A stretch of 38,517 nucleotides of DNA from a virus (lineage: Duplodnaviria > Caudoviricetes): the IMG/VR virus record IMGVR_UViG_3300037692_000242, positions 1 through 38,517 of that record. One strand, given 5' to 3'. The notes below the pieces were generated by a model. It was not told the DNA's origin. It ran no database searches and worked only from the letters and a program-made list of their open reading frames with translations. Position numbers and translations under genes: made by a program. Below, piece by piece: positions 120 through 38,509 of this stretch. Numbering within the stretch: position 1 is the first letter of the stretch; each line of letters starts with the position of its first letter.

Positions 120-208
120 ACATAACGGCCAATGATAACCGGTGGCGACGGATGGAACGGGCCTTGACCACTGCCGCATATTCCATCCGGTTGATCAAAT
201 TGTTAGGC
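120..208 (-). mobile_element. attC-like recombination site (array site 4)
   Basis: ACATAAC(120-126)...GTTAGGC(202-208). Arms TGATAACCGG / CCGGTTGATCA with one extra base in the right arm; inner stem GGATGGAA/TTCCATCC. Confidence 0.88.
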
Positions 209-225
209 ATTTTTGAGGAGGAAAC

Positions 226-792
226 ATGGGATCCAGCGAAGATATCAAAATTAAATATTTTCTTGGCGAAGGGAGTGAGTCCCTTGCAATTATCCTTGAG
301 GCCAAAAAGGAGCAAACCCTGCACTTCGAAAAGGTAAACGCTCTTGTCTCCAAATACGGTGCTGATGCCGCATGGGGTGGACGTGCGGAACTCTCGGCCC
401 TCGCATTCAACCATGATCCTTCGGTAAAGCCAGAGATGAAAGAAGGTTTTTTGCGGCCAAAGATCCACACCAGTGATGGTCAGAGATATGCCGTTTATTC
501 CCCGGACAAGCGTTACAAGGAGGGGAAGGGTCTTGCACGGGAGCTTAAAGGCGTGGGAACTTTCAATTTTAGCGACTGTATTGTGGAAAAACTAGGCCTC
601 ACATGCAGTGTGTTCGGCCAACTCGACGGCAGGTGGGTCAGATGTTCGACTTCCGCCGGATGCTACGGCGAACGGATTGTTGTTCGGTTCCCCTCTGGTG
701 GCGACTCGCGGCCCCAAGAGATTGCGCTGCATCCATTTCTACGGGAAATCAAGCGGTCGGAGTTTATCGCAATTTCAGAAGAAAGTGCCTAA
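226..792 (+). CDS. Hypothetical cassette protein (188 aa)
   Basis: GAGGAGG RBS before ATG; stop TAA lies inside GCCTAAC; cassette ends GTTAGGCA/TGCCTAAC are complementary. Confidence 0.85.
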   Translation: MGSSEDIKIKYFLGEGSESLAIILEAKKEQTLHFEKVNALVSKYGADAAWGGRAELSALAFNHDPSVKPEMKEGFLRPKIHTSDGQRYAVYSPDKRYKEGKGLARELKGVGTFNFSDCIVEKLGLTCSVFGQLDGRWVRCSTSAGCYGERIVVRFPSGGDSRPQEIALHPFLREIKRSEFIAISEESA

Positions 793-870
793 CGGTTACT
801 GATAACCGGTGGCGACGGATGGAGGCAGGATCGCTGCTGTTATTCCATCCGGTTTATTAGATTGTTAGCG
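787..870 (-). mobile_element. attC-like recombination site (array site 5)
   Basis: GCCTAAC(787-793)...GTTAGCG(864-870); arms CTGATAACCGG / CCGGTTTATTAG; core nearly identical to the site at 120-208. Confidence 0.88.
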
Positions 871-896
871 GTTTCGCGCCGCATGGAGACGCAGGT

Positions 897-1310
897 ATGT
901 ACTTAGGATTTTTGGAAGAAGGTGACCGCTGCCGAGAAAACCAATGCGGCGGTAAGCTCAGGTTCCCGAAGGTGGAAAATTGCTCGTGCCACATAAGCCC
1001 GCCTTGTGGTGCTTGCACGTCGATCAGGCTTACGTGTGATGCCTGCGGGTGGGTAGATGACGCCCCGGAATACATCGATGCCCCTGTCGCACCCGGACTG
1101 GCTATGCGAGAGTGTCGACCTCGCCCCCTAGACAGCACCAAGATCGACTACAGAACAAAGAGGCACAGCAGCTGTTCAATGCTAATTGAGGGCGTTTACC
1201 CGCTAGGGACGACCAGAGAGGAAGTGGTTGCCTTGGTCAAAGGCACGTTCGGCGGGAGATTCGAAACATTCGGCAACGGCAAGTTCAGATATGTCGCGTA
1301 CACCGATTGA
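897..1310 (+). CDS. Cys-rich, probable zinc-binding cassette protein (137 aa)
   Basis: GGAG RBS; motifs CxxxxC, CSCHISPPCGAC, CDACGW; cassette ends GTTAGCGGT/ACCGCTAAC. Confidence 0.85.
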   Translation: MYLGFLEEGDRCRENQCGGKLRFPKVENCSCHISPPCGACTSIRLTCDACGWVDDAPEYIDAPVAPGLAMRECRPRPLDSTKIDYRTKRHSSCSMLIEGVYPLGTTREEVVALVKGTFGGRFETFGNGKFRYVAYTD

Positions 1311-1318
1311 TGTTTGAC

Positions 1319-1422
1319 CGCTAACGATAGAGATAAGGGGCTGGTGCAGAATGGCTGTGAACCAGCGAGACTATCGAGAACACTAATTGCCGAACCAGTC
1401 CCGCTTCATTGACGGGTTAGGG
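1319..1422 (-). mobile_element. attC-like recombination site (array site 6)
   Basis: CGCTAAC(1319-1325)...GTTAGGG(1416-1422); arms GATAAGGGGCTGGT / ACCAGTCCCGCTTCATT with extra bases in the right arm; spacers 6 nt (left) and 5 nt (right). Confidence 0.88.
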
Positions 1423-1442
1423 CGCAGATCGGAGACGAAACC

Positions 1443-1631
1443 ATGGCAAGTGAATTCGAGAAATACCGACGCAAAGCGATTAAGTACGGGTGGACCATGC
1501 CGGCCAACGACGCATTCGGGCCGAATGTTTGGTTGCGTTATTGGCAGGATATGGATCAGTGCCGCAAAGACCCTTCGGGTGGCCGGCCAGTAGCTCCCCA
1601 CAGAAGCGGTGGTGGGCAGGTATTCAGGTAA
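1443..1631 (+). CDS. Hypothetical cassette protein (62 aa)
   Basis: GGAG RBS; fills the cassette bounded by GTTAGGGCGC/GCGCCCTAAC. Confidence 0.7.
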   Translation: MASEFEKYRRKAIKYGWTMPANDAFGPNVWLRYWQDMDQCRKDPSGGRPVAPHRSGGGQVFR

Positions 1632-1634
1632 GCG

Positions 1635-1722
1635 CCCTAACCTTTCAAGAATAAGCGGCTGCGGCGAGGCGTTGGGCCTATGCACAGCCGGTTATTCAGT
1701 CCGATTAATTCTAGGGTTAGGT
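1635..1722 (-). mobile_element. attC-like recombination site (array site 7)
   Basis: CCCTAAC(1635-1641)...GTTAGGT(1716-1722); arms GAATAAGCGGCTG / CAGTCCGATTAATTC with extra bases in the right arm. Confidence 0.85.
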
Positions 1723-1746
1723 GGCCACCTTCCAAAAGGGGACGAA

Positions 1747-1935
1747 ATGCGGGTAGATGCGGATAAACACACCGTTGTTTATGCACTGTGCGAGATGCAC
1801 GAAATAACAAGGAAGCTCTGGCACATAAGGGAATTAACCAGGGCCGCAGGCAACCATGATGCGACCATTGAAATAAACGAACTGGTGGACATTATGCAGG
1901 TGATGCTACCTGCCCCGATTAAGAAGGCCACCTAA
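1747..1935 (+). CDS. Hypothetical cassette protein (62 aa, MRVDADKH...)
   Basis: AAGGGGA RBS before ATG 1747; stop TAA inside ACCTAAC; cassette ends GTTAGGTGGCC/GGCCACCTAAC. Confidence 0.75.
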   Translation: MRVDADKHTVVYALCEMHEITRKLWHIRELTRAAGNHDATIEINELVDIMQVMLPAPIKKAT

Positions 1936-1988
1936 CGAGGGAGGTAAGCGCGTGAGCGTAGCGAATCCGCTTGACCGTATTGTTATAC
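1930..1988 (-). mobile_element. attC-like recombination site, 59 bp (array site 8)
   Basis: Minus strand reads GTATAAC-AATAC-GGT(C)AAGCG...CGCTTACC-TCCCTC-GTTAGGT: the classical 59-base-element layout with 5/6 nt spacers and an extra C in L''. Confidence 0.9.
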
Positions 1989-2524
1989 CTCATGGTGGCT
2001 ACCGCACCATAGTAGCAGACCCGCCGTGGAAGTACGGCAAATGGGGAAAGGCCAGCATTGCACCGTGTGGTTCCACCTACGCGCCACAAGACAGCGTGAT
2101 GCCGTACCAGACGATGACGGTGGCCGAGATAACCGCATTGCCTGTTGCCGAGGTTGCCGCTGTCGATTGCGATCTCTACTTGTGGACCACCCAGCGGTAT
2201 TTGCCTGTAGCATTCGATGTGCTCAAAGCGTGGGGCTTCAAATACTGCCAGACGTTGACATGGTGCAAGAAGCCGAAAGGGACGGGTCAGGGCGGTTTGT
2301 TTTGCCCCACGACCGAATTCTTGCTGATCGGCCGCAAAGGGCGGATGCCTAAAGGAAAGCAGCGGATCGACACGACCTGGTGGGAAGTGAAGAGGCCGAT
2401 GCGACACAGCCAGAAGCCGGAGCATTTCCAGGACATCATTGAAATGCAGGGGGAAGGGCCACGACTCGAGCTTTTTGCCAGACGCCACCGCCCCGGCTGG
2501 GACGTGTGGGGTAATGAGGTATAA
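1952..2524 (+). CDS. MT-A70 family N6-adenine methyltransferase (cassette-borne)
   Basis: IVADPPW catalytic motif, LYLWTT, WGF.Y, RHSQKPE, LELFARR..PGWDVWGNEV; GTG start with GGGAGG RBS. Confidence 0.92.
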   Translation: MSVANPLDRIVIPHGGYRTIVADPPWKYGKWGKASIAPCGSTYAPQDSVMPYQTMTVAEITALPVAEVAAVDCDLYLWTTQRYLPVAFDVLKAWGFKYCQTLTWCKKPKGTGQGGLFCPTTEFLLIGRKGRMPKGKQRIDTTWWEVKRPMRHSQKPEHFQDIIEMQGEGPRLELFARRHRPGWDVWGNEV

Positions 2525-2542
2525 CCTTTGATTAGCCGGACC
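2519..2542 (-). mobile_element. attI-like insertion site terminating the array
   Basis: Minus strand GGTCCGGCTAATCAAAG-GTTATAC resembles class 1 attI1 (GCCCTAAAACAAAGTTRRRY) in having CTAA-N6-GTT; no inverted arm, so it is not an attC. Confidence 0.6.
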
Positions 2543-2555
2543 GTGCAAGGTTGAC

Positions 2556-2870
2556 ATGTACCGTAAACGCACCAAGGGAAGTCGAAAGTTCAACGAACGC
2601 ATGGCCGCCGCCCGTGCAGCAAAGGAGCGTCTCCGCCTTGAGGGAGACGCTCCTGATTACCCCGCTGAACCTCTCCTGATCCGCCGGCGGGTGATCATCG
2701 AGGACTACGACTGCGGCCAGGTGGTGCGGCACGAATTTACCCTGGCCCGATCCGGGCGGATTGACAGCTACGATGTTTCGGCCGATGGGGTGTCCCTCGG
2801 CCGCATGGGGTGGGCCAGAACTCTTGTTTTTGTCCGCAAGGCGTTTATCCGGGTGGGGAGGTTTGACTGA
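2556..2870 (+). CDS. Hypothetical phage protein (104 aa)
   Basis: AAGG RBS; co-oriented with neighbours; no tyrosine-recombinase motifs. Confidence 0.7.
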   Translation: MYRKRTKGSRKFNERMAAARAAKERLRLEGDAPDYPAEPLLIRRRVIIEDYDCGQVVRHEFTLARSGRIDSYDVSADGVSLGRMGWARTLVFVRKAFIRVGRFD

Positions 2871-3382: not shown

Positions 3383-3784
3383 GTGATAAAGTTTTGTCCG
3401 GGATGCGGAAAGGATCGGCCTGTCGAAGAGTTCTGGAGTCATAGCGGCAAAAAGGATGGTTTGCAGTCTCGTTGTATCGAGTGCAACGGGACGATGCGGA
3501 GGGTCGACCGCGGCTTGCCGGCGGACAACGAGACAATGAGGACAAGTTGTTGGGGGCTGGAAAAGACGGAGGGGTATATCAAGGTCAAGGTGAAATGCTG
3601 GTCTGCCCGTGAGGGGTGTCCCGGGGAGCGGGACTTCATTATTGCTGAGGGTGACAAGACGCCCCGTTATGTCTGTTCCTCCTGCAACGAAAGCGGATAT
3701 GAGCGGGGCATCAGAATGTCGGACGCTCTGGTCAGGGTCATCAACAAAGAACTTTTGCGGGAAGGGCACAGCGATGGAGTTTAA
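3383..3784 (+). CDS. Zinc-finger protein (HNH-associated-type N-terminal finger)
   Basis: KFCPGCGKDRPVEEF...DGLQSRCIEC plus a second Cys cluster; AGGAGG RBS, GTG start. Confidence 0.75.
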   Translation: MIKFCPGCGKDRPVEEFWSHSGKKDGLQSRCIECNGTMRRVDRGLPADNETMRTSCWGLEKTEGYIKVKVKCWSAREGCPGERDFIIAEGDKTPRYVCSSCNESGYERGIRMSDALVRVINKELLREGHSDGV

Positions 3785-8081: not shown

Positions 8082-8375
8082 GTGGCCAAGGTCTCCAAGG
8101 AGCGCAAAATAGAAATATCTGACCTGCTGGAAGTCATGGCGACTCCGGCGGGGCGCCGGTTCGTCTGGCGACAACTCGAAATTGCCGGGGTCTATCTGGC
8201 CTGCTACACACCGGAAGCAGAAGGAGGGCGCAGGATCGGTCTTCTTCTCCTGGCGGATTTGGTCAGTGAATGCCCTCGGGAGTATCTGGCCATGCAGTCG
8301 GAGCAGATGAATCAGACCACCCGGGAGCGGATTGAAAAGGAAGCCAACAAGGAAAGGGAAACCGATGAAGCGTAA
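8082..8375 (+). CDS. Bbp19-like phage protein
   Basis: DL..VM.TPAGRRFVW..L...G...EG.RRIGL.L motif; position between portal and scaffold. Confidence 0.8.
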   Translation: MAKVSKERKIEISDLLEVMATPAGRRFVWRQLEIAGVYLACYTPEAEGGRRIGLLLLADLVSECPREYLAMQSEQMNQTTRERIEKEANKERETDEA

Positions 8376-9105
8376 ATTTCTGAGAGTAAATGAGATTCAT
8401 TCCGGCGCCGCGTTCATTACGACGGAAGACGAGGGAGCCGGTAATTCTGACGAAGGCGGGGACGATCTGGCGACCCTCTTTTCCAAAGAGGACATTGAAG
8501 CCAAGCGCACGGCCATTACCGAATCCAAGGCCGAAGAGGACCGCCGTGCTGCCCTGACCGACGAGGAGCGTACCCTTGAGGACACGACCAGGGCCGAAGA
8601 GACCGCGGCCAAGGGGGTTCCCGAGAAGTACGACTTCAAAATCCCCGAAGGCACCACCATTGACGACGAAATCATGGGGGAAGTTTCTGCTTTTGCCAAA
8701 GAGAACAACCTGCCCATGAAGGAAGCGCAGCGCATCGCCGACCTTGGGGCGAAAATGCTTGTCAAACAGCAGGAATCCCGGATGGCCGAATACGAAACCA
8801 TCAAGGAGGGCTGGCTGACCTCGGCAAAGACCGACAAGGAAATCGGCGCCGACATTTCCAAGGGCAAAGACTCCATCGCGGCCCGGGCCTTCAATACCAT
8901 TGCCACCCCGGAGATGAAGGAGATGGTCGATCAGTATGGCATCGGCAATCACCCGGAAGTTCTCCGCATGTTTTACCGATTGGCGCCTTTCATGGCGGAC
9001 GACAAGATGCACATGCCCGGATCGGGCGCAGGGGCCGGTAGCTCTACTGGAGTGGAAAGCACTGTCGCAGGCATCTTTAATCATCCCAGCCGGAAACAGG
9101 GCTGA
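8365..9105 (+). CDS. Capsid scaffolding protein, with AFIT leader
   Basis: Acidic N-half, PEKYDFKIPEG, AKE.NL...AQ, GIGNHPEVLRMF motifs; directly upstream of the capsid gene. Confidence 0.88.
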   Translation: MKRKFLRVNEIHSGAAFITTEDEGAGNSDEGGDDLATLFSKEDIEAKRTAITESKAEEDRRAALTDEERTLEDTTRAEETAAKGVPEKYDFKIPEGTTIDDEIMGEVSAFAKENNLPMKEAQRIADLGAKMLVKQQESRMAEYETIKEGWLTSAKTDKEIGADISKGKDSIAARAFNTIATPEMKEMVDQYGIGNHPEVLRMFYRLAPFMADDKMHMPGSGAGAGSSTGVESTVAGIFNHPSRKQG

Positions 9106-9156
9106 TCGGCGCATCACCCAACGCAGTTTCCTATTAACCGAAGAAGGAGAAGCACC

Positions 9157-10284
9157 ATGAAACAGCTTTATCTCTGCATCCTGCTGTTCGTCGCCTCGGT
9201 TGCTGCCATGTTCCGGCAGGCAACCATCACCCGTTCCAGCGCGTTCATCACCACGGCGCTGCCTGACACCAATGCCACCCTGCTCGATTATGCGGCCATG
9301 TACCAGGCCGACCCTGCCACCAAGGGCGTCGGCGACTTCATCATGCTGGCAGCGGAGCAGAACGAAATTCTCGACGACCTCGTTATGCAGGAGTGCAACG
9401 ACGGCACGAAGCACAAGAGCGTCATCATCCCCGGCCTGCCGGAGCCGACCTTCCGCAAGCTCTATGGTTTCGTTCAGCCCTCCCGCGTTCAGGGTATCCC
9501 AATCTCCGACAACTGCGCCATGCTGGAAGACTATCTCCAGACCGACAAGGCTGTCGCCGACCTGAACAACAACTCGGCGCGTTTCCAGATGTCCCAGGCG
9601 CGGGGCATCACCGAAGGGTTCAACAAGAAGATTGCCTCCAGCCTCTTCTATTCCAACGAGGCTACCCAGCCGGAAGCCTTCACCGGCATGGCTCCCCGCT
9701 TCAATGATCTCTCCGCGGCCAACGGCGGGAACATCATCGATGCCCTCGCCGGGGCCGGCGTCGCCGCCGAGCTCCTGCACTCCTCGATCTACATTGTCAA
9801 CTGGGGAGATTTCCAGGTTCACGGGATTTTCCCCAAAGGCTCCAAAGCCGGCCTTCAGATCAACGACAAGGGTCAGGTCACCGTCCAGGACACCACGGCG
9901 GCTGACGGCATGGGCGGGGGCCTGATGGAGGCTTACCGAACCCACTTCCGGTGGGACATCGGACTGGCCGTTCCCGACTGGCGCCACGTCGTGCGAATCG
10001 CCAACATCAAGACCTCCGCCCTGACCAAAAATGCCGGCTCCGGCGCCGACATCATCGACCTGATCACCCAGGGCCTGGAGATGATTCATTCCACCGGGGG
10101 GCGTCCGGCTATTTACTGCAGCCGTGCGGTCCGTTCCTTCCTCCGCCGGCAGATCGCCAACAAGATCGCCGCGTCGACCCTGACGATGGAGGATGTGGCC
10201 GGCAAGCGTGTCGTCGCCTTCGACGGCATCCCGGTTCGTCGGTGTGACGCCCTGATCAACACCGAAGCCGGCCTCGAGGCATAA
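9157..10284 (+). CDS. Major capsid protein (BPP-1/epsilon15-like), with N-terminal leader
   Basis: NEILDD...ECNDGTKH...GLP.PTFRKLY, FTGMAPRFN, GIFPKGSKAGL, YRTHFRWDIGL.V.DWR.VVRIANI, FDGIPVRRCDA. Confidence 0.95.
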   Translation: MKQLYLCILLFVASVAAMFRQATITRSSAFITTALPDTNATLLDYAAMYQADPATKGVGDFIMLAAEQNEILDDLVMQECNDGTKHKSVIIPGLPEPTFRKLYGFVQPSRVQGIPISDNCAMLEDYLQTDKAVADLNNNSARFQMSQARGITEGFNKKIASSLFYSNEATQPEAFTGMAPRFNDLSAANGGNIIDALAGAGVAAELLHSSIYIVNWGDFQVHGIFPKGSKAGLQINDKGQVTVQDTTAADGMGGGLMEAYRTHFRWDIGLAVPDWRHVVRIANIKTSALTKNAGSGADIIDLITQGLEMIHSTGGRPAIYCSRAVRSFLRRQIANKIAASTLTMEDVAGKRVVAFDGIPVRRCDALINTEAGLEA

Positions 10285-10290
10285 CCGAAC

Positions 10291-10318
10291 GGGGGGAGGT
10301 TGCTCTCCCCCCTTCTTT
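10291..10318 (+). terminator. Stem-loop after the capsid gene (partial terminator or stabiliser)
   Basis: GGGGGGAG-gttgct-CTCCCCCC followed by TTCTTT. Confidence 0.6.
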
Positions 10319-10345
10319 CCCCAATTCTTTTCAAGGAGACGGCTC

Positions 10346-10828
10346 ATGAAATATCTCGTTCGGAAGGCTCAAGCCTTTATCACCGCGATTCTGGATCTCC
10401 GGTCCACCTTCGCCTCCGCCACCTCGGTTGCCGCCACCGCCGGGACCGCCATTCTCGGCAACGTCATGCCCCTGGACACCACGGGGTTCAATCTCGGGCA
10501 GGCCATGCAGCGCGTCTACCTCGTCATCGCCGTGACGACCGGGCTCGATTCGGCCGGCGGGGCCGCGACCCTGGCATTCAAGCTGATGAGCCATTCGACG
10601 GAAACCATCACCTCGGGTGTGACCCATGTTCAGACCGCGGCCTTTACCGAAGCTCAGGCCGTCGCCGGAACCGTGTTGCACTGCCAGCCTCTCCCCCAGG
10701 GGACCTATGGAAAGTACCTCGGCCTGGCCTTTACCCTCGCCGGGGAGACCTCCACTGTCGGTGCCGTCAACGCCTACCTGACCCTCGATCCTCCGCAGGG
10801 CTGGAAAGCCTACCCCAACGCGGTCTAA
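10346..10828 (+). CDS. Capsid cement/decoration protein (Bbp16-like), with AFIT leader
   Basis: ILD....F, beta-rich, LP.G..GKYLGL.FT, G.VNAYLT.D...WKAYP; follows the capsid gene. Confidence 0.85.
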   Translation: MKYLVRKAQAFITAILDLRSTFASATSVAATAGTAILGNVMPLDTTGFNLGQAMQRVYLVIAVTTGLDSAGGAATLAFKLMSHSTETITSGVTHVQTAAFTEAQAVAGTVLHCQPLPQGTYGKYLGLAFTLAGETSTVGAVNAYLTLDPPQGWKAYPNAV

Positions 10829-15978: not shown

Positions 15979-16474
15979 GGAAGGCTCGGCTTTTATTACG
16001 ACCATGGCATATGTTGCAGTTATAACAGCCGTCATTACCGCGGCAGTCTCGACAACCGCCGCCTATCAACAGAGCGAATCCGCCCAGGACATGGCCGACT
16101 ACAACGCCGAAGTCGAAGACATGAAGGCCAAGGACGCGGCCAACGTCGGCGCCAATGCCGCCGGCGACGCTCGGGCCAAGGCGCGGAAGATCATCGCCGC
16201 CCAGGTCGAAGCCGGGGGAATGTCGGGAGTCGATACCAATTACGGAACGCCCATGGGTCTGCTGGTCGAAACAGCAGGGATCGGGGAGATGGAAGCCCTG
16301 ACGGTCATGAACAACGCGCAGAGACAGGCGTGGGGGCACCAGGCGCAGTCCAGCCTTGACACCCTGAAGAGCAAACAGGAAAAGCAGGCCGGCGTATTGA
16401 ACACAATGGGCACAGCACTCAGCGGCGCCTCAAGCGTTTACGGCGCAGGGCGTACAGCAGAACTCTGGAAATAG
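15968..16474 (+). CDS. Internal virion/ejection protein (T7 gp14-like), with AFIT leader
   Basis: Hydrophobic Ala-rich N-terminus, YNA.V, Q....G.SGVD...GTP, NNAQRQAWG; start at ATG 15968 with GGAGG RBS. Confidence 0.85.
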   Translation: MEVKEGSAFITTMAYVAVITAVITAAVSTTAAYQQSESAQDMADYNAEVEDMKAKDAANVGANAAGDARAKARKIIAAQVEAGGMSGVDTNYGTPMGLLVETAGIGEMEALTVMNNAQRQAWGHQAQSSLDTLKSKQEKQAGVLNTMGTALSGASSVYGAGRTAELWK

Positions 16475-16482
16475 GGGACATC

Positions 16483-18333
16483 ATGAGAATCGCCGCCGCA
16501 TTCATCACCGTCAACGTTCCCCGGATGGAGCAGACCACCAAGACACAGGCCGTCGCCATTCCGCGGGGGTCCGTCGGTCCGGATCGGTTCGCCGGCCTCG
16601 CCGCCGGGGTCAAACAGGCGTCCAATACCATCAGCCAGATTGCCACCAGGGAAGTCGCCGAACAGGACGCCTCCCGGCTGTCGAAAGCTCAGGCCGATTA
16701 TGAGGATGCCAAGGTCAAGTTCCTCTACGGCAGCAAGGACGAACAGGGTGAAACACCGGGCCTGTTGCACACCCTCGGTGAGGCCGCAGTCAATCCGGCG
16801 GACGGGAAGACTCTCGATGCCAAGGCCGAAGAATGGCACAGGAACTATCTCGACAATCAACTGGGAACCCTCGGAAACGACCGGCAAAAAGCCCTGTTCA
16901 CTCAGTACGCCGACCGGGACCGGGCTTCGGTCACCAGTGCCGTGGTCAACCATGAATGGAAGCAGGGCCAAATCGTCAAGATCGGCAACGCCAACGCGGC
17001 AACCGACCTGGCCACAACCAACGCCATCAAACTCGGCACCACGGCAGGGGCCGACCCGGAACTTTACGCCAACGCCTTGACCAAGGTCGAAGAAGCCACT
17101 CAGGTTCAGGCCATGATCGAAGGATTCAGCCCCGAATCCCAATATGCCAAAGACCTCCTTTCCTCCAAAATGTCCAAACTCCACAGCAACATCATCATCA
17201 GCAAGGTTTCCTCCGACGACGACAAGGGCGCCATCGCTTATTACGAGGAACACGGCGACACCATTACCGACCCTGCCGAGGCCCTGGCTATCGGCAAGAC
17301 GATCTCCACGCTGAAGATCAGGGTCGAGGGAAAAGAGACTGCGGCCGCGATTTGGGAGAAGCACAAACCGACCGATGTCAACGTCTCTGTCGATATCGCC
17401 GCCATGCGTGAAGAGGTCGCCGCCGGCAAGGGAGGAGAAGCCGAAAAGGCGGTGGCTCTGGCCCGGGTCGAAGAGATTGCCGCAGAGCATCAGCAGGCAA
17501 ATCGGCTCAAAGAAGAAAGTGCCTCGAACAAGATCTTCGGCATCGGGCGCAAGGAAGGCGCCACCTACGACGCAACGATCAAGGCGATTAACCTGGAGCC
17601 GAACATCGACAACCGAACCCGGGAGAGCCTGCAGAATTGGGCCGAGTCGAAGTTCAAAATCAATGAGGGTAAATCCGGGATTGATGCCGACAAGAAATAT
17701 GCCCAAAAGCTTGAACAACTCGGCAAGCTGCTTTCCTTCCAAAACGAATATCTCTCTGGCGGCTACGGAACTCTCACCCCGGAACAACTCGGAACGAAGG
17801 TGGGGGACCTCGGAGAGTTCACCGACAACGCCATGCAGTTCGTCGACAGGGTGAATACCGACCTCAACACCGCCAAAGTCGTCGATTCCGACCTCAAGGA
17901 TCTGCTTCACACCCTCGGGCAGAGCGACGCCTACAAGGATCTCGTCCCGAACATCGATAAGCCCAAACCCGAAGACAAGGCGAAGCTGGCCGTTCTCCAG
18001 GGGGAAGTGCAGCGGATCATGGTCACGTCTCAACAGGCCAGCGGCCCGGGAAAAGGAATGAGTCTCAAGGCGGCAACGCTCAAGGCCATCCAAAACGTGC
18101 GAACGGATAAGGGATGGGCCAAGGTCTTCGACAACGGCCAGCCGTTTTACCTGGTGGGAACCGACCTGGCGGACAAGTATTCCAAAGGGAACGACCCGTC
18201 GAAGTGGTCGAAGGAAACCCAGGCCAACTACATCAAGGCGCGGTGGGAAATGCTCCCGTCCAATCAGGGGAAGACCCTCGCTCCGGCAGAGCTCGAAGTC
18301 CTTCGCAACGCACTTCTGCAGACGGAGCAATAA
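16483..18333 (+). CDS. Internal virion/ejection protein (gp15-like position), with AFIT leader
   Basis: 616 aa, helical and Ala-rich; second of three ejection-protein genes. Confidence 0.8.
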   Translation: MRIAAAFITVNVPRMEQTTKTQAVAIPRGSVGPDRFAGLAAGVKQASNTISQIATREVAEQDASRLSKAQADYEDAKVKFLYGSKDEQGETPGLLHTLGEAAVNPADGKTLDAKAEEWHRNYLDNQLGTLGNDRQKALFTQYADRDRASVTSAVVNHEWKQGQIVKIGNANAATDLATTNAIKLGTTAGADPELYANALTKVEEATQVQAMIEGFSPESQYAKDLLSSKMSKLHSNIIISKVSSDDDKGAIAYYEEHGDTITDPAEALAIGKTISTLKIRVEGKETAAAIWEKHKPTDVNVSVDIAAMREEVAAGKGGEAEKAVALARVEEIAAEHQQANRLKEESASNKIFGIGRKEGATYDATIKAINLEPNIDNRTRESLQNWAESKFKINEGKSGIDADKKYAQKLEQLGKLLSFQNEYLSGGYGTLTPEQLGTKVGDLGEFTDNAMQFVDRVNTDLNTAKVVDSDLKDLLHTLGQSDAYKDLVPNIDKPKPEDKAKLAVLQGEVQRIMVTSQQASGPGKGMSLKAATLKAIQNVRTDKGWAKVFDNGQPFYLVGTDLADKYSKGNDPSKWSKETQANYIKARWEMLPSNQGKTLAPAELEVLRNALLQTEQ

Positions 18334-30483: not shown

Positions 30484-31016
30484 TCCCACTCCTTTATAAT
30501 TTTAGAAGAACCCTTGGCTATGTCTTCATACCTCTCATAGGGAATACCAAGTTCAATAGCTATCCTTTCCGTTTTCCGTGATTGTGTTATCAGTGAAAGT
30601 TTTGCATATTCATCTGGATAATATTTTTTGAACCGCTTTAACTTCGTGATACTCTTACTGTCGAACCATCCCTTGACCTCTATCCATCTCCCCGTGGTTT
30701 TGTTGAAAAAGTCAGGGGTATATGAAACGGTTCCTCTGCGAATGCCCTCAAAGTAAAAATCTCGGGGTTCGTAATCCCATTCCTCCCCGATAAGGTTCAG
30801 GTATCTAGCGAAGTTCGCTTCTGTTTTGCTTCTAAAGAAAACGTCTCCAAGATCCACCCTCTTCCCGGAGACTGTTCTTGAATATGGGTTTGTAATATGT
30901 CTCATAGGGTTGACTGTTCCATTGGAAACCTTGGTTAAGAGAATCTTTTCGGACCTATCGCTGATGTTCTTTGCGGTCAAGTCAACACTATTCCGGTTCA
31001 TTGTTGGGACAGGCAT
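30480..31016 (-). CDS. PD-(D/E)xK endonuclease, T7 endonuclease I-like (putative resolvase)
   Basis: FRSKTEANFARYL...WDYEP..F...YTPDF...IEVKGW; true start may be 31001 or 30905. Confidence 0.85.
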   Translation of the reverse strand: MPVPTMNRNSVDLTAKNISDRSEKILLTKVSNGTVNPMRHITNPYSRTVSGKRVDLGDVFFRSKTEANFARYLNLIGEEWDYEPRDFYFEGIRRGTVSYTPDFFNKTTGRWIEVKGWFDSKSITKLKRFKKYYPDEYAKLSLITQSRKTERIAIELGIPYERYEDIAKGSSKIIKEWE

Positions 31017-31779
31017 CGTCGTGCCCCTCGGTGCGGTGGCAGAATTCGCAAGGCTCGATTTCCTTAACCTCCCGCGGTTCTGGGGTGAATCCGAAACGGT
31101 CCATCAGCGTCGTCGGGGGAGTCCTGTCGATCCCTTCGTGCTCGTTGAGCATGTGAATCGCTTCCGCCATGCGCTCCGTTTTCGGAAGGAGCTTGAAGAG
31201 TTTCTTCACGGCAGTTTTTCTCCACATCTCAGATTCCCATTCAACCCAAGGTCCCGATTTGGCCTTGCTCACCGCCTTGACCTTCATCACCTCTTCCCGG
31301 TCAAGGACGATGAATTTCTTCATGCCGTTGTGGAGGATGGCTACCGCGTAGACAAAGACGGCTTCTCCCTTGTTTCCGCTCATGACGGGCCGGTGAACGA
31401 GCTTGGGACTCAGCCCCATTTCGTAGTCGAAAACGTCATTTTCGTAAACCACCGAAGCGTCGATATCCAGGACCGATCCCGAGTCTGTCGCCACCATGAC
31501 CATGCCGCGGTAGGAGATATCCAGCACACACTTTCCCCCCCTGGGTACGAGATAGGCCAGGGCCAGCGCCGGGTTCAGGCTGATGCCAATGGTTGCCAGG
31601 TTGATGATCGCATTCTGAATCGATTCCTGGGTGCATTTCTGCAGGGCCTCGCTGCCGCGCACCACCTGCATGGCGAAAACAAGTTCTCTGTTCCATCTGG
31701 CTTCGTCGCCGTTTTCGATTTTCAGGAACATGGATTTTGCCGAAATGATGGCCAGTTCGTGTCGTGGTCTGTCGGTCAT
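30988..31779 (-). CDS. recT: RecT family single-strand annealing protein
   Basis: C...SI..A....A..G..LNP....AYLVPRGG...L.ISYRG, VVYENDVF.Y..G, PW.....EM..KT.VK...K.LP. Confidence 0.92.
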   Translation of the reverse strand: MTDRPRHELAIISAKSMFLKIENGDEARWNRELVFAMQVVRGSEALQKCTQESIQNAIINLATIGISLNPALALAYLVPRGGKCVLDISYRGMVMVATDSGSVLDIDASVVYENDVFDYEMGLSPKLVHRPVMSGNKGEAVFVYAVAILHNGMKKFIVLDREEVMKVKAVSKAKSGPWVEWESEMWRKTAVKKLFKLLPKTERMAEAIHMLNEHEGIDRTPPTTLMDRFGFTPEPREVKEIEPCEFCHRTEGHDDACPNNEPE

Positions 31780-31797
31780 GATAATCTCCCTGGTAAT

Positions 31798-32895
31798 TTA
31801 GGCGTTGGCTTCGGCGATGATCAGGATCTGCTGCATGATATCCTCCGCATCATGGCCGGTCGCATTGTACTCCGTGACGAGACCAATGATCTTCTTGAAC
31901 GCGGTCCCGGAATCCTTGCACTTGGCGGCGAGGATCTTCTTTTCCCGCTCGACCTTCTTCTTCTCCTTCTCTGCGGCCAGCCGGAGTTTTTCGTTCTCAG
32001 CGTTCCTAAACCGAATCTGCTCCTGCTCTTCTGCCCAGCGAAGGTCTTCCTGCCGGCGCTTCTCGGCGTCGATGCGGTCCTGCTCTTCCCGAGCGGCGCG
32101 TTCCTGCTTCTCCTTTTCTTCCCGGAGAATCCGGGCGGCTTTCTCCTGCTCCTCCTGCTGAATGCGCAGCTTCTCATTGTGCTGGCGCCATTCTTCTTCC
32201 TGTTGCTGCTTCCTCTTTTCGAACTCCTCCCGCTCGAGCCGCAACTTTTCGGCCTCCTCGTCCATGCGCTTCTGTTCGATTTCCCGGGCAATGCGCTCCT
32301 CTTCGAGTCTGGCAAGCCGTGCGGCCTCCTCAGCAAGCACAAGCTCTTCTTCCTGCACCCTTGCTGCATGGATCTCTTTGACGGCAACCAGGGCCGAATC
32401 AAGGGCCTCCTGTGCCAAAAGCAGCCACTCCCCGTAAGTGTCCGGGTCGAGAATGTGATGGGCCAGAAAGTCGACGCTCTCCTGAATTTTAGCCGAAGGC
32501 AGGCCGGTCATGCGCTCGGGGATACCCTTGATCTTTTCTATGGACCCCATGATTTTCTGAACGCGAAGCTGTTCCGCGGCAATCTTGCGCTGTTTTTCCT
32601 CTTCCTTCCTCGCCTCTTCTTCCTTGATCTGCCGGTCAATCGGCTCTTCGAGCAGGCGGATCTCGGTTTCAATCCGCTTGGCTTCCGTGTCGATCAACTT
32701 GGCTCTCTCCAGGGCCGGAGCTTTGAGCTCCTTCCGCTTGGCCTCCAGATCGACGCGCAGGGTGACGAGTTCCCGGCGGTCCAGTTTGGCCAGGTTCATT
32801 CCCGTGACGGTAGTCACATCGTACCGGGCATCCTTGAGCTTGGCCTGCAGGGCGGCGAGGGCGGCGGCGGTGACATTGTACTCAATAATATTCAT
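31798..32895 (-). CDS. Coiled-coil protein of the recombination operon (DUF1351-like)
   Basis: RVDLE.KRKELK.P.L...K.ID.EAKRI...I...EEPID.QIK followed by a long E/K/R-rich coiled coil. Confidence 0.8.
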   Translation of the reverse strand: MNIIEYNVTAAALAALQAKLKDARYDVTTVTGMNLAKLDRRELVTLRVDLEAKRKELKAPALERAKLIDTEAKRIETEIRLLEEPIDRQIKEEEARKEEEKQRKIAAEQLRVQKIMGSIEKIKGIPERMTGLPSAKIQESVDFLAHHILDPDTYGEWLLLAQEALDSALVAVKEIHAARVQEEELVLAEEAARLARLEEERIAREIEQKRMDEEAEKLRLEREEFEKRKQQQEEEWRQHNEKLRIQQEEQEKAARILREEKEKQERAAREEQDRIDAEKRRQEDLRWAEEQEQIRFRNAENEKLRLAAEKEKKKVEREKKILAAKCKDSGTAFKKIIGLVTEYNATGHDAEDIMQQILIIAEANA

Positions 32896-32914
32896 CTACA
32901 TTTCCTCCTGAAAT

Positions 32915-33817
32915 TTAACGTTCGGAATAAGGAAGGAGCTCTTGCGCTCCGGCGTCTTGGTAGGCGGGATAATACCCCATGCGGCGGCAATTCAGTTCGG
33001 TGGCCACGTTCTGCAGCAGTTGAGACCGGCCTTCGATCAGGAGGGAATTATCCCCCATGAGGGTGTAGACGGCAACGCAGTACGGCGGCGTTTTCTCCAC
33101 AGCGATAAACGCGAACGAATCCATCGGCGGGTTGTCGACCGGATTCCACCCGTGGTCGGCAATCATGACCTCCCGAGCAGAGTTGTAGCCGTCGATGTAC
33201 ATTGCCGCCTGGTGGAAGTATCCGAACTTGTAGCAGGCATTGAGAAACCCGCGATAAGAGGCGTCGGCGCAGGTCTTCAGGTCGAGGAGAACGGCCATCT
33301 TCGTCGAAGGGGTCCGGTCCGGGCGAACCTTGCAGAGCACCGGCTGGCCGGCTACAACCAGCTCAAAAATGGCCGTCTGTTCCGAGACGCCTTCCTTGAG
33401 CAGGGTTCTGGCAAAGTCGTGGCTGCGAATCGACTCCTTCATTCCTTTGATGACGGCGAAGTCGTCGGCGGAAATGATCTCTTTGTTCCCTGCCAGCATG
33501 GCGAAGCGATTCCACATTTCCACCGCGTAGATCGACTCAGGGGACGGCTTCTTGGCGTTGACCTGGGCGGCGGTCGGTTTCTTGGGCATGTCCGCCGGCA
33601 GAACCAGGAAGGATTTATTGAACTCCGTTTCGCCTTCCAGAATAAAGGCGTGGGAGGCCCGACCTATGGCCATGGCCGGAGAGTCGCCGTTGTCGATTTG
33701 GGCGGCGGCGGGGCAGGAACTGCCGAGCTTCTTGAGATAGCTGTTCCGCAGATAGGGGAGCGCGTTGTATTCCTCGAAAGGAATGTTCGTGTAGATGCCG
33801 GGACGGTACTCTTTCAT
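32915..33817 (-). CDS. RecE-like exonuclease VIII (PD-(D/E)xK, DUF3799-like)
   Basis: PGIY..I..EEY, S.LK, G.A.HA.ILE, K.RPD, DLKT, Y.Y..QAA.Y, F.FIAVEK.PPY; lies upstream of recT. Confidence 0.9.
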   Translation of the reverse strand: MKEYRPGIYTNIPFEEYNALPYLRNSYLKKLGSSCPAAAQIDNGDSPAMAIGRASHAFILEGETEFNKSFLVLPADMPKKPTAAQVNAKKPSPESIYAVEMWNRFAMLAGNKEIISADDFAVIKGMKESIRSHDFARTLLKEGVSEQTAIFELVVAGQPVLCKVRPDRTPSTKMAVLLDLKTCADASYRGFLNACYKFGYFHQAAMYIDGYNSAREVMIADHGWNPVDNPPMDSFAFIAVEKTPPYCVAVYTLMGDNSLLIEGRSQLLQNVATELNCRRMGYYPAYQDAGAQELLPYSER

Positions 33818-35115: not shown

Positions 35116-35303
35116 AAGCTGAATCGCTTGCGGCACTGCTGGTGGTGCTTTTTCTGCTGACCATCCTGGCGCTCATTGCCGGCCCTGCCATCGACCAGGA
35201 AATGGAGTATTCACGAAATCAGCTTGATAGCCAGATCAGCCCTGAGCAGCGCAGGGAGATCATGGAGCGGCAATATTATATTGCACCGCCGATGAAAAAC
35301 TGA
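35112..35303 (+). CDS. Small membrane protein (63 aa)
   Basis: ATGA overlap; LAALLVVLFLLTILALIAG transmembrane segment. Confidence 0.65.
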   Translation: MKAESLAALLVVLFLLTILALIAGPAIDQEMEYSRNQLDSQISPEQRREIMERQYYIAPPMKN

Positions 35304-35393
35304 TAGTGTCGTCGGGCAATTGAAACAAAAAAATCAGCAGGGCTTCCGTGATGGGTTAGCTTTGTGATATAAGTATTTGGGGATTACCCCAAC

Positions 35394-35447
35394 AAAAGAC
35401 CCATGTTTCGCAGACGCCATCACCGTCTCGGAGCATGGGTCTTTTTT
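35394..35447 (+). terminator. Long stem-loop / terminator upstream of the replication genes
   Basis: AAAAGACCCATGTTTCGCAGACG-ccatcac-CGTCTCGGAGCATGGGTCTTTTTTT. Confidence 0.65.
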
Positions 35448-35461
35448 ATTCAGGAGGTTGC

Positions 35462-35626
35462 ATGGATTGCGAATTTGAACACGCAAAAGTATACGTCGGG
35501 GACAACGGATATGTGTGTATTCAGCAGGACACCAGATGTGAAACTGAAACGATCATTCTCCATCCTGAACAAGTATCGGTATTGGTGAAATGGTTAGAAC
35601 GCGCAGCCATGGAAGCCCTTTCGTAA
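35462..35626 (+). CDS. Hypothetical protein (54 aa)
   Basis: AGGAGG RBS; VY...NGYVCI.Q......IILHPEQV..LV.WL. Confidence 0.7.
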   Translation: MDCEFEHAKVYVGDNGYVCIQQDTRCETETIILHPEQVSVLVKWLERAAMEALS

Positions 35627-35661
35627 TAATTTATTTCTCTTTCGCCCATCGGGAGGGCTAT

Positions 35662-36552
35662 GTGGATCACCGCGAATCCGACTGGATAAGGATCAACCGA
35701 AGCCTAATGTTGAATGACTTGTGGCTCAGCGAACCCTTCACTGCAGGGCAGGCGTGGGTTGACCTTCTTATGGTAGCAAACTGGAAGAACGGGATGGCCT
35801 TGGTTAAGGGTGAAGTCATACCTTTACATAGAGGTCAGTTGTGCCGGAGCATGAAACAATTAGCTATCCGGTGGCAATGGTCTGACGGCAAAGTGAAGCG
35901 ATTTCTAAAAAAATGTGAAAAATTGCGGCAAATTACTTTTGAAAATTGGTCAAAAAACGTTGCGGCAAACGTTGCGGCTAAAAGTCCCGTAACTACCTTA
36001 ATTACAATACTAAATTACGACGACTACCAAGGTAGCGTTGCGGCAAACGTTGCGCCGACGTTGCGGAGGCGTTGCGCCGACGTTGCGGAGGCGTTGACGG
36101 AGGAAGAAGGTAAAGAAGTTAAGAAGGAAAAGAAAGAACCTAAAACCAAGGGTCAGCCCTTCGTGCTTCCATCGTGGGTTCCTTTAGAAGCGTGGCAACG
36201 GTTTGATGATATGAGGACGGCCAAGAGCAAAAAGGCGTGGACCAATGGAGCCAAAACCCTCACCATAAAAACGCTCGAAAAACTCACGGCTGACCCCCGG
36301 GAGGCAACGGCGATTATGGATCAGTCGACCATGAAGGGATGGGCTGGGATTTTCCCGGTAAAAGATCAAAATGATTTTAATCACCAGGTGCGGGAGCCAT
36401 CACAACAAGCCAAGGGTGCCATGGTCCTCAGCGAAATGAGAAGGAGGTTGCGAGATGTGGATAGCGGACGAAATATTGGAGGGGCTGGAGAAACTGATGT
36501 CCTTGAGATTGAGCTTTTCCCCGGCGGCGGAATCCCTCCAGAAGACGGCTGA
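35662..36552 (+). CDS. Replication initiator (lambda O / replisome-organiser type)
   Basis: WIRINRSL...LW..EPF..GQAWVDLL..AN, RGQ...S...LA.RW.WS..KV.RFL winged helix, ITILNYDDYQ, internal iterons, C-terminal LP.W.P.EAW..F..MR; GTG start with GGAGG RBS. Confidence 0.88.
   Translation: MDHRESDWIRINRSLMLNDLWLSEPFTAGQAWVDLLMVANWKNGMALVKGEVIPLHRGQLCRSMKQLAIRWQWSDGKVKRFLKKCEKLRQITFENWSKNVAANVAAKSPVTTLITILNYDDYQGSVAANVAPTLRRRCADVAEALTEEEGKEVKKEKKEPKTKGQPFVLPSWVPLEAWQRFDDMRTAKSKKAWTNGAKTLTIKTLEKLTADPREATAIMDQSTMKGWAGIFPVKDQNDFNHQVREPSQQAKGAMVLSEMRRRLRDVDSGRNIGGAGETDVLEIELFPGGGIPPEDG
35958..36100 (+). repeat. Iteron array, putative replication origin
   Basis: CGTTGCG at 35958, 35970, 36036, 36048, 36059, 36070, 36081 plus variant CGTTGACG at 36092; 11-12 bp spacing; A-rich tract follows. 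Confidence 0.82.
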
Positions 36553-36951: not shown

Positions 36952-36971
36952 AAAGGACTTTCGTTTTTTTA

Positions 36972-36999
36972 TTGACATACGGAAAAATGTTGCCATTAT
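36972..36999 (+). promoter_or_regulatory. Sigma70 promoter facing the cassette array
   Basis: Perfect TTGACA, N16, TGc-CATTAT extended -10; AT-rich tract upstream. Confidence 0.65.
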
Positions 37000-37037
37000 G
37001 TAGGAGACAGGAAAACAACAAACCGGGGACGGCAACC

Positions 37038-37190: not shown

Positions 37191-37213
37191 AGCGGGGCAA
37201 AGAGGAGGATATA

Positions 37214-37474
37214 ATGAAAGCACAATTCGAACTGGACTTAACCAACGCCCTTTTGCCCGACTGGTGGCCCACGGGCATACCCAAGGTTTTACCGGTGGAA
37301 AAAGGCCGGTATAAAAAAGATTTCGACCTCTGCCGGGAGAAGATAGCGCCCGACGACTACCGGCAATTGCTGGAGGCTACCGACTACGCCAACGTCGGAC
37401 GAGACAGCGGTATCCCGATCGGTCTGGATTTTATTCACATCCCTATCGGCGCCGTTATTCGGAGGACGAGATAA
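37214..37474 (+). CDS. Hypothetical protein (86 aa), backbone gene flanking the array
   Basis: AGGAGG RBS; stop TAA inside AGATAAC; no upstream GTT box matching its end. Confidence 0.8.
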   Translation: MKAQFELDLTNALLPDWWPTGIPKVLPVEKGRYKKDFDLCREKIAPDDYRQLLEATDYANVGRDSGIPIGLDFIHIPIGAVIRRTR

Positions 37475-37573
37475 CGCCCCGATCAGCGCACGGCGACGGG
37501 CCGGGCGAGGATCGACGAGATTTTAACGAGGAGCACTGCCGTCCATTCCGTTCGCTGAATTGGATGGTTATCT
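37469..37573 (-). mobile_element. attC-like recombination site (array site 1)
   Basis: AGATAAC(37469-37475)...GTTATCT(37567-37573); arms GATCAGCGCACGG / CCGTTCGCTGAATT with an extra base in the right arm. Confidence 0.85.
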
Positions 37574-37595
37574 ACTTTTTTGAAAGGGTCAATCA

Positions 37596-37811
37596 ATGAG
37601 CACGAGATACAAAAGGTCAGAAGATGTGCCCAACGAAACACTGGCGACTAGGCTGGACGAATTGGCCAAGGTCGTCACCACGGGGACTTTTGGTAGCGAA
37701 TTTTCTATGCGAGTCCCCGCCGAACTCGACCGAGACGCCGACATCGTGATGGCCGAGGCTGCACGGAGGATCAGATCATTGGACAACAAGGGTCCTGTTT
37801 TCGATAGATAA
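37596..37811 (+). CDS. Hypothetical cassette protein (71 aa)
   Basis: AAGGG RBS; F.MRVPAE.DRDAD.V..EAARR; cassette ends GTTATCTA/TAGATAAC. Confidence 0.8.
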   Translation: MSTRYKRSEDVPNETLATRLDELAKVVTTGTFGSEFSMRVPAELDRDADIVMAEAARRIRSLDNKGPVFDR

Positions 37812-37910
37812 CGCTTCAAGCTCAGGGGCGCCGCACCGGGCCTTGAATATCACCGAAATTATCGAGAACCACGGACGCCGAAGGCGTCCCTTTGAAGCGC
37901 CTGGTTACAC
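37806..37910 (-). mobile_element. attC-like recombination site (array site 2)
   Basis: AGATAAC(37806-37812)...GTTACAC(37904-37910); arms GCTCAGGGGCGCC / GGCGTCCCTTTGAAGC. Confidence 0.85.
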
Positions 37911-37926: not shown

Positions 37927-38412
37927 GTGAGCAAACACATTCAGGAAATCGTTGAATCAAGAGATTACGGGAAAATGGTTGGATTCTTCGAGAATCCAAT
38001 TCCAGGGGAGTATGTCATCACTGGCCCGCAAGCCGGGAATCTGAGAGGGGAAGGTGCTGGGGGTTGGCACCGGTACGTCGGCTATGTTGTTCAGGTAAGA
38101 GAAAAGGCCGGAGCTTTTGGATCTGCCATCGTACTGCTGCGGCACCCTGACGGGGTGTTGGGCAGACACGAAAACCAGATGTTTCACCGGGTGGACAGTG
38201 GGGTCTTAGCGAAAATAAAGGCACTCTATGAAGAGGGTATGACTCCCGACGAATACGAGGATTATTCTCAGCCGTACTCCCTGAGTGGAGAATACCCGGA
38301 GACCGGGCGGGTGATCGGGCCGAAGGATGATGGCCCACCAAGGGATAACCGCCCGATGGTGCAGATTACCACCATAAGCCCCGACGGAAGCCGAAGGGTT
38401 GAGGTCGTGTAA
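37927..38412 (+). CDS. Hypothetical cassette protein (~161 aa)
   Basis: GGAGG-N5-GTG at 37927 (or ATG 37915); VQVR..AGAFGS..VLLRHPDG.L..HENQ.F motif; cassette ends GTTACACGACC/GGTCGTGTAAC. Confidence 0.82.
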   Translation: MSKHIQEIVESRDYGKMVGFFENPIPGEYVITGPQAGNLRGEGAGGWHRYVGYVVQVREKAGAFGSAIVLLRHPDGVLGRHENQMFHRVDSGVLAKIKALYEEGMTPDEYEDYSQPYSLSGEYPETGRVIGPKDDGPPRDNRPMVQITTISPDGSRRVEVV

Positions 38413-38509
38413 CGCCAAAATAACCGGCTGCGACGGGACATAAGCGAACCACCGCCCCATTCGGGGCAGCACTGACGATGTTCAGTCCGTGTTTATTTTA
38501 TGGTTAGGG
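38407..38509 (-). mobile_element. attC-like recombination site (array site 3)
   Basis: GTGTAAC(38407-38413)...GTTAGGG(38503-38509); arms AAAATAACCGGCTG / CAGTCCGTGTTTATTTT with three extra bases in the right arm. Confidence 0.87.

What the first reader, a model, noticed from the sequence alone, without database searches (positions are those of the whole stretch)
120..2542. A phage carrying an integrase-less integron-type gene-cassette array
Seen: every intergenic gap from 37469 through the window ends to 2525 is a 59-105 bp imperfect palindrome bounded by TAAC...GTTA boxes with L-box arms (8 sites, five in this segment). Each gene is bracketed by a GTT box that is the reverse complement of its own downstream AAC box: 202/786 (8 bp), 864/1317 (9 bp), 1416/1632 (10 bp), 1716/1926 (11 bp) and 1982/2514 (12 bp). 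The two boxes of a single site usually match less well. Established: this is the signature of integron cassettes that existed as excised circles and were inserted by IntI. Integrons are described mainly from chromosomes, plasmids and transposons. Inference: no tyrosine recombinase is recognisable in this genome, so the phage would borrow a host IntI to gain and shuffle accessory genes, acting as a phage-specific cassette platform.
Basis: partly seen in the sequence, partly recalled or inferred. Interest (0 to 1): 0.95.

Follow-up and report, generated by a model that had tools for sequence, protein, structure and literature searches.

The report
Mirror-image integron in a phage
A sediment phage keeps at least seven small accessory genes as swappable integron-type cassettes that face the opposite way to bacterial ones and end at a conserved likely docking site; it has no integrase in the assembled sequence and likely borrows one from its host or from neighbouring phages.

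Summary
Observation confirmed, interpretation revised. A model built only from bacterial attC sites finds exactly 8 sites (35-58 bits; next 9.8), all on the minus strand, while the genes are on plus. The cassettes are therefore reversed relative to bacterial integrons. The array ends at a 29-bp attI-like site (2523-2551) before a 104-aa gene of unknown function. Four near-identical phages match from that site onward, each with a different adjacent cassette. No IntI is in this record or in 31 records carrying that gene. Other phages put a full IntI in the same slot and share cassettes with integrase-less ones, unit for unit (99.7%). The attC family is that of Desulfuromonadales chromosomal integrons. 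Both contig ends lie inside the array and the circular join is unsupported, so eight sites is a minimum. Phage attC clusters are published (Qi 2023, 2-4 sites); I found no paper on reversed polarity, but this scan reported it on other DNA several times. Added here: the docking-site-plus-small-gene platform and the pool shared with IntI-bearing phages. Recombination itself is untested.

The parts
36972..36999 (+). sigma-70-like promoter candidate upstream of the array, pointing into it
   Evidence: 10 of 12 matches; 1 found against 2.3 expected in shuffles, so a lead only
37214..37474 (+). g1, 86 aa; likely backbone gene at the far end of the array; its stop is in the first AAC box and it has no attC to its left
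37469..37573 (-). attC s1
   Evidence: 47.5 bits; its start is identical to an attC of IntI-bearing phage L240
37596..37811 (+). cassette gene g2, 71 aa, no family (unit 37475-37811, ends complementary over 8 bp)
37806..37910 (-). attC s2
   Evidence: 46 bits
37915..38412 (+). cassette gene g3, 165 aa, weak phrog_33619 (unit 37812-38412, 11 bp)
38407..38509 (-). attC s3; the record ends 8 nt later
   Evidence: 53.1 bits
1..125 (+). 3' end of a cassette cut by the start of the record
120..208 (-). attC s4, Desulfuromonadales type
   Evidence: 58 bits; alignment
226..792 (+). cassette gene g5, 188 aa, DUF5420 / phrog_2260 (unit 126-792, 8 bp)
787..870 (-). attC s5, Desulfuromonadales type
   Evidence: 51.8 bits
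897..1310 (+). cassette gene g6, 137 aa, phrog_22771; homologs in other phages have no attC flanks (unit 793-1324, 9 bp)
1319..1422 (-). attC s6
   Evidence: 37 bits
1443..1631 (+). cassette gene g7, 62 aa; its attC, leader and trailer recur around unrelated genes elsewhere (unit 1325-1640, 10 bp)
1635..1722 (-). attC s7
   Evidence: 34.7 bits
1747..1935 (+). cassette gene g8, 62 aa (unit 1641-1935, 11 bp); seen with s7 in another context in run X2
1930..1988 (-). attC s8; holds the ribosome site and start codon of g9
   Evidence: 34.8 bits
1952..2524 (+). cassette gene g9, 190 aa, MT-A70 family DNA adenine methyltransferase (unit 1936-2524, 12 bp)
   Evidence: PF05063 E 5e-24; MTase_II E 6e-46
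2519..2551 (-). attI-like docking site; predicted crossover between 2524 and 2525; 29-bp gapless conserved motif 2523-2551
2556..2870 (+). gene X, 104 aa, basic, no known family or fold; sits where related phages have intI
30988..33817 (-). RecT and exonuclease VIII-like genes (context; candidate route for swapping genes within a cassette frame)

Best explanation
This is a reversed-polarity integron cassette array in a tailed phage: eight attC sites lie on the strand opposite to the genes, the array ends at a likely attI site, and an IntI supplied from outside (the likely Desulfuromonadales host, or a co-infecting phage that carries its own) likely inserts and removes the cassettes. Shown: each unit is an attC body plus the gene to its right, it begins and ends at an AAC box, and close relatives differ unit by unit at the terminal site. 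Inferred: the coding (plus) strand folds into the recombinogenic hairpin; circles enter at AA|C 2524/2525, so the newest cassette is farthest from the promoter; one rightward phage transcript would read through the cassettes towards the site, gene X and the packaging genes. Because IntI fixes attC polarity at the site, only cassettes with reversed genes would be expressed here; ordinary host cassettes would land antisense.
For: Model from bacterial attC: 8 of 8 hits on minus. Gene orientation: viral loci 36 reversed, 2 ordinary, 10 unclear of 48; bacterial loci 3 reversed, 43 ordinary, 17 unclear of 63. L002, L178, L180, L181 are 96-97% identical from 2520-2523 rightwards and differ leftwards; their last cassettes have their own end complementarity of 9, 8 and 13 bp, one with a covarying non-standard box (L180 too short to test). 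Contigs of runs X2-X4 stop fitting at 127, 1325/1326, 1641, 1937 and 2525, several with further unlike letters. The site's core occurs once in the window (0.18 expected per strand) and matches the cores at the attI position of four bacterial integrons and of phage-borne intI genes; attI is described as two boxes 4-5 bp apart (PMC12614218). The same attC family forms ordinary arrays in Malonomonas rubra and Desulfuromonas, with IntI over the TIGR02249 cut-off in 3 of 5 genomes. Full-length IntI with catalytic residues and the IntI patch sits behind such a site in phage-like L230 and in viral contigs, three of which were checked and have terminase genes. Sister phage L021 has an internally deleted intI there, before a cut gene X. 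Units shared between gene-X and IntI phages start and end at AAC boxes: L182/L240 364 bp 99.7%, L185/L230 894 bp 89.9%. IntI1 recombines 5 of 6 tested phage attC sites (PMC9892861).
Against: No recombination was tested. The record is incomplete inside the array. The host is inferred from attC similarity only; the site motif was in 0 of 233 genomes of that order and gene X in 1 of 401 of the phylum. None of the window's own cassette genes was found in an IntI-bearing array or a bacterial locus among those fetched. The g7 homolog in L020 (57%) sits behind another attC type, so attC and gene are not fixed partners over long times. The promoter candidate is no more than chance would give. Contig breaks at repeats can be assembly effects. 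The orientation caller is a simple ORF score with many unclear calls.
Confidence: 0.8

Rival explanations
1. Frozen relic: the array was built when an ancestor had its own intI at the site, and today changes only by homologous or RecT-type exchange between phages at repeated attC bodies.
For: Sister phage L021 keeps a deleted intI in that slot; the window encodes RecT and an exonuclease VIII-like protein; attC-like sequence is very abundant in these samples (summed depth in the hundreds to thousands against about 10 for the phage).
Against: Five phages with 96-100% identical gene X join five different cassettes at the same AAC, where only 3-4 bp are shared. The site stays gapless across phages whose gene X is 41-100% identical, and none of 31 such records has IntI, 9 of them at least 90% complete. 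A 99.7% identical unit lies in an IntI phage and a gene-X phage with different neighbours on both sides.
Confidence: 0.1
2. The sites are recombined by another enzyme (a small Xer-type recombinase, or gene X itself), and the likeness to integrons is convergent.
For: Earlier notes of this scan describe integron-like phage arrays beside Xer-type recombinases (unchecked). Gene X is tightly linked to the site: 21 of 24 motif loci have it directly behind.
Against: The sites fit a model of attC from bacterial arrays, several beside intI; the enzyme found in the same slot passes the integron-integrase cut-off. Gene X is 104 aa and matches no family in four libraries.
Confidence: 0.06
3. The palindromes are RNA elements (terminators, processing or stability hairpins) or dispersed repeats, not recombination sites.
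For: They fill every gap between genes of a likely operon, and s8 carries a ribosome site and start codon.
Against: Complementarity is between the ends of a cassette, not within a site; swaps are exact at AAC; no Rfam match; none of the 5 terminator-like hits in 35200-38517 lies in s1-s3.
Confidence: 0.03

Closest known systems
CALINs in phage genomes (Qi, Rajabal, Ghaly, Tetu, Gillings 2023, PMC9892861)
   Same: Clusters of attC sites without integrase in phages; methyltransferase cassettes; sites usable by a bacterial IntI (shown there for 5 of 6 sites).
   Different: Listed cases have 2-4 sites against at least 8 here. The text I read reports no reversed genes, no phage-specific attI and no shuffling among relatives. 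By my scan TJE1 is in ordinary orientation and MW202573 is reversed. The Dryad annotation file was not seen.
Sedentary chromosomal integrons of Desulfuromonadales (Malonomonas rubra DSM 5091, loci L155 and L097)
   Same: Same attC family, same attI core, same 8-12 bp complementarity of cassette ends.
   Different: There the genes run with the attC top strand away from attI (43 of 46 called), are longer (median 152 against 76 aa), share no homologs with the phage cassettes sampled, and intI is in cis.
Complete phage-borne integrons with reversed cassettes
   Same: Site at the promoter-distal end, minus-strand attC, plus-strand genes (20 reversed, 4 ordinary, 6 unclear of 30); cassettes shared with gene-X phages.
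   Different: They encode IntI behind the site; here gene X takes that place. Among loci L230-L281 only the L021 contig has gene X too, with both genes cut.
attG secondary sites (Loot et al. 2024; seen only as cited in PMC12614218)
   Same: Cassettes can enter DNA outside an integron platform through an IntI acting in trans.
   Different: The site here is a conserved 29-bp element used again and again in many phages, not a sporadic target.

Membership tests
Complete integron | intI gene in cis beside attI | tested here: not met
   No PF00589 match in the record; the slot beside the site holds gene X. The record is 91% complete and the gap is probably inside the array.
Complete integron | attI: two boxes 4-5 bp apart at the growing end of the array | tested here: met
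   By sequence and comparison only. Function not assayed.
Complete integron | attC with R''/L''/L'/R' boxes, 5-nt spacer, extrahelical base | tested here: met
   8 of 8; pairing of the model supported in the 60 bacterial sites, though these were picked by my own detector.
Complete integron | cassette ends complementary, as left by integration of a circle | tested here: met
   8-12 bp in 7 of 7 complete cassettes; max 7 in 64 other pairs.
Complete integron | genes run with the attC top strand, away from attI, under a promoter at the attI end | tested here: not met
   All genes run towards the site, opposite to attC; the only promoter candidate found upstream is at the far end (the site end was not scanned).
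Complete integron | IntI-dependent, strand-selective recombination | not testable with these tools
   Needs an attC x attI assay.
CALIN | two or more attC within 4 kb on one strand, no intI nearby | tested here: met
   Clustering rule from 10.1101/030866. My own model was used, not IntegronFinder's.
CALIN | detection by IntegronFinder or HattCI | not testable with these tools
   Programs not available.
Xer-type integron-like phage arrays (scan notes) | small Xer-like recombinase without the IntI patch beside the array | tested here: not met
   The recombinase in this slot in relatives is IntI with the patch.
Known recombinase or accessory-factor folds (gene X) | structural match to a solved or viral fold | tested here: inconclusive
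   Model pLDDT 82.7, pTM 0.53; no Foldseek match at E<=0.001; best VIA Z 4.0.

The most novel reading that the evidence does not exclude
Phages of sediment bacteria run a mirror-image cassette economy of their own. Some carry IntI; a second lineage has replaced intI by gene X, whose product recruits or induces the host integrase at a dedicated attI. Reversed polarity acts as a firewall: phage cassettes are silent in host integrons and host cassettes, anti-phage ones included, are silent in the phage. New cassettes are made by swapping the coding region inside an existing attC-leader-trailer frame, perhaps by the phage's RecT, which would make the origin of integron cassettes testable.
Probability: 0.25. 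Interest if true: 0.93.

Novelty: new variant of a known kind. Interest (0 to 1): 0.72.

Why it matters
It turns phage attC clusters from occasional pick-ups of host DNA into an actively shuffled accessory-gene platform with its own docking site, polarity and, in relatives, integrases. It gives a site-specific route to phage mosaicism, with methyltransferases and other likely counter-defence genes as cargo (4 DNA methyltransferases among 67 phage cassette proteins, plus g9). It names two testable things: a small protein family (241 clusters) that takes the place of intI, and cassette frames that hold different genes, which bears on how integron cassettes arise.

Tried and rejected
Rfam: no match. 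A longest-ORF orientation caller was noisy and was replaced; of its 6 distinct 'ordinary' viral calls only L022 looks like a real gene by eye. Gene X: no family, no fold, Atlas best 0.80 unnamed, no GenBank phage; longer homologs look like chimeras. A complex prediction of gene X with IntI could not be run (tool not available), so there is no result either way. PHROG hit rates do not separate the pools well: 17 of 67 phage against 7 of 43 bacterial cassette proteins (7 of 74 and 3 of 46 left out as doubtful or reversed calls). The reversed gene in host integron L035 has no viral homolog. The site motif in Desulfuromonadales genomes: 0 of 233; leader motif 1 of 301. Five related records share no backbone left of the array, only attC, so the far boundary could not be compared. 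The first tree kept only 21 rows; the second (55 rows, FastTree) shows two viral-only groups of 12 (support 1.0 and 0.999), but the larger viral group is unsupported (0.45) and bacteria are thinly sampled, so one origin is not claimed. The anchor tally used a wrong spacing and is void; one search is used (25 of 28 rows). I expected L020 to carry g7 behind the same attC; it carries another gene there. The circular join of the window ends was considered and rejected as unsupported.
Full report
Context. The record is a 38,517-bp virus contig, classed linear and 91% complete. It encodes terminase, portal, GP7-type capsid, amidase, RecT, an exonuclease VIII-like protein and a replication protein. 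Runs that hold the stretch are sediment and soil metagenomes. Six-frame searches found no tyrosine or serine recombinase, while the same searches ring in 14 and 13 of 14 control genomes.

Observation. The complementary pairs are real: 8, 11, 8, 9, 10, 11 and 12 bp for the seven complete cassettes, 4 bp across the window ends, and at most 7 in the 64 other pairings. My rule-based detector found 8 sites, all in the array. A covariance model built from 60 attC sites of bacterial loci (picked by that detector; no window sequence) found the same 8 at 34.7-58 bits, with the next hit at 9.8. The ends probably do not join, so the array is longer than seen.

Polarity. All 8 sites have the 5-nt spacer and the 8-nt box with the extra base on the right, so their canonical top strand is minus, while the genes are plus. 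Earlier notes of this scan prompted this check. Across fetched loci, viral cassettes were 36 reversed, 2 ordinary and 10 unclear of 48; bacterial ones 3, 43 and 17 of 63. An enlarged viral set gave 75, 7 and 29 of 111. The mobile unit is an attC body plus the gene to its right: a contig of run X2 covers 1644-1937 without a mismatch inside other sequence; the start codon of g9 lies inside s8; and units shared between phages start and end at AAC boxes.

Docking site. L002, L178, L180 and L181 are 96-97% identical to the window from 2520-2523 rightwards and unrelated leftwards. A 29-bp motif starting at that AAC precedes gene X in 25 of 28 rows examined. In the reverse test, 21 of 24 viral loci with the motif have gene X directly behind; 9 of the 24 were new and 6 of those have it; the pattern came from gene-X loci, so this is partly circular. 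Of 27 gene-X loci, 22 have 800 nt or more upstream; 21 show minus-strand attC by the detector (82 minus, 1 undecided, 0 plus; 3 hits in 108,956 nt downstream) and the last shows two by the model. The motif's core occurs once in the window and matches the cores at the attI position of four bacterial integrons and of many phage intI genes. It has no second arm, so it is not an attC.

Source of the integrase. A pattern from the phage attC family hit 131 stretches of bacterial genomes (80 listed); repeated hits were mostly in Malonomonas, Desulfuromonas and kin. There the arrays are ordinary and IntI passes its cut-off in 3 of 5 genomes. This makes a Desulfuromonadales host likely, by inference. 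A second source appeared: phage L021 (terminase about 70% identical) has an internally deleted intI directly behind such a site, and a phage-like contig of genome G610 has it whole, with reversed methyltransferase cassettes upstream. That protein found 48 viral loci, 12 of them full-length at 67-79%; three checked have gpA terminase. It aligns to VchIntIA over its length with the IntI patch, and three of three tested pass TIGR02249. Of 44 loci tallied, 31 had room upstream and 23 showed minus-strand attC; cassettes were 20 reversed, 4 ordinary, 6 unclear. None of 31 gene-X records has IntI over the cut-off, 9 of them at least 90% complete. Yet gene-X and IntI phages share units: L182/L240, 364 bp at 99.7%, and L185/L230, 894 bp at 89.9%. 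None of the window's own cassette genes was found among the IntI arrays fetched.

Cargo and frames. Phage cassette proteins are short (median 76 against 152 aa) and had no homolog among 46 bacterial cassette proteins. Homologs of g6 in six other viral loci examined have no attC, so the cargo can come from ordinary phage genes. One leader occurs before five unrelated genes: g7, L020/L182, L024, L230 and a reversed gene in third position of a complete Desulfuromonas integron, L035; the window, L020 and L035 share the trailer too. This suggests that genes are swapped inside a frame, and that reversed cassettes can be parked in a host integron; both are inferences from few cases. Two ordinary host-type cassettes sit antisense in phage arrays L019 and L022.

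Gene X. A basic 104-aa protein with 241 clusters at 50% identity, predicted as helix, four strands, helix, with no family or fold match. Its role is open: bystander whose leader holds the site, or helper of a borrowed integrase.

Mechanism. Shown: structure, polarity, unit boundaries, variation at the site, absence of IntI in the assembled sequence, presence in relatives. From established integron biology (PMC12614218, passages): IntI joins a folded attC bottom strand to double-stranded attI, and the extra bases set orientation. Inferred: the coding strand is the folded one, insertion is at 2524/2525, the enzyme comes in trans, and reversed genes are kept because phage transcription runs towards the site.

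Literature. PMC9892861: main text parts 1-4 of 7 and supplement part 1 of 2 read; it reports 17 phage CALINs, 2-4 sites in those listed, five methyltransferase cassettes and IntI1 activity. Its Dryad file was not seen and may show orientation. 10.1101/030866, PMC12614218 and PMC13366799: passages only. Ten searches found no paper on reversed phage cassettes, a phage attI or phage IntI groups; subscription journals are mostly outside the library. This scan has noted reversed phage integrons on several other genomes; those notes are leads, not support.

Verdict. Real, works like an integron, not a complete integron by definition (no intI in cis, reversed genes), formally a CALIN with its own attI. 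New variant of a known kind; interest 0.72.

Noticed in passing
L035:10645-10925: A reversed 74-aa gene with the same leader and trailer as window cassette g7 sits in third position of a complete Desulfuromonas chromosomal integron; no viral homolog found.
   Followed up: partly
L021:10915-11810: Internally deleted phage-type intI followed by a 5'-cut gene X behind an attI-like site, in a 42.6-kb sister phage.
   Followed up: yes
L230:8890-12239: Phage-like contig with whole IntI and reversed cassettes upstream, and further minus-strand attC sites downstream of intI; the genome also has a second, 463-aa IntI on another contig.
   Followed up: partly
L282:2069-3738 and L233:244-1519: Of two published phage CALINs, MW202573 is reversed relative to its genes and TJE1 is ordinary.
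   Followed up: yes
L153, L155, L031, L232: Several chromosomal IntIs of these bacteria lie in open frames of about 460-490 aa, with an N-terminal extension that the 323-aa phage IntIs lack.
   Followed up: no
window 3704-3722; L002:2050-2427: L001 and L002 carry about 380 bp extra at this point, between short repeated ends, which splits and extends the gene at 3383-3784.
   Followed up: no
L165:560-975: The docking site before gene X is interrupted by an insertion whose end looks like a TnpB-type transposon gene (read by eye).
   Followed up: no
window 37469-37573 and 38407-38509: attC-like contigs sum to depths of hundreds to thousands in four sediment or soil runs, against about 10 for the phage, so this site family is very common there.
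   Followed up: no
L019:2233-2454 and L022:5661-5951: Ordinary-orientation, bacterial-looking cassettes lying antisense inside reversed phage arrays.
   Followed up: partly
L019, L020, L004, L008 (right ends of arrays): Reversed arrays without gene X also end in a one-armed AAC site with a similar core, so other platform types exist.
   Followed up: no
window 8263-10347, 16438-18630 (minus strand): Long antisense open frames over structural genes; probably a by-product of codon bias.
   Followed up: no
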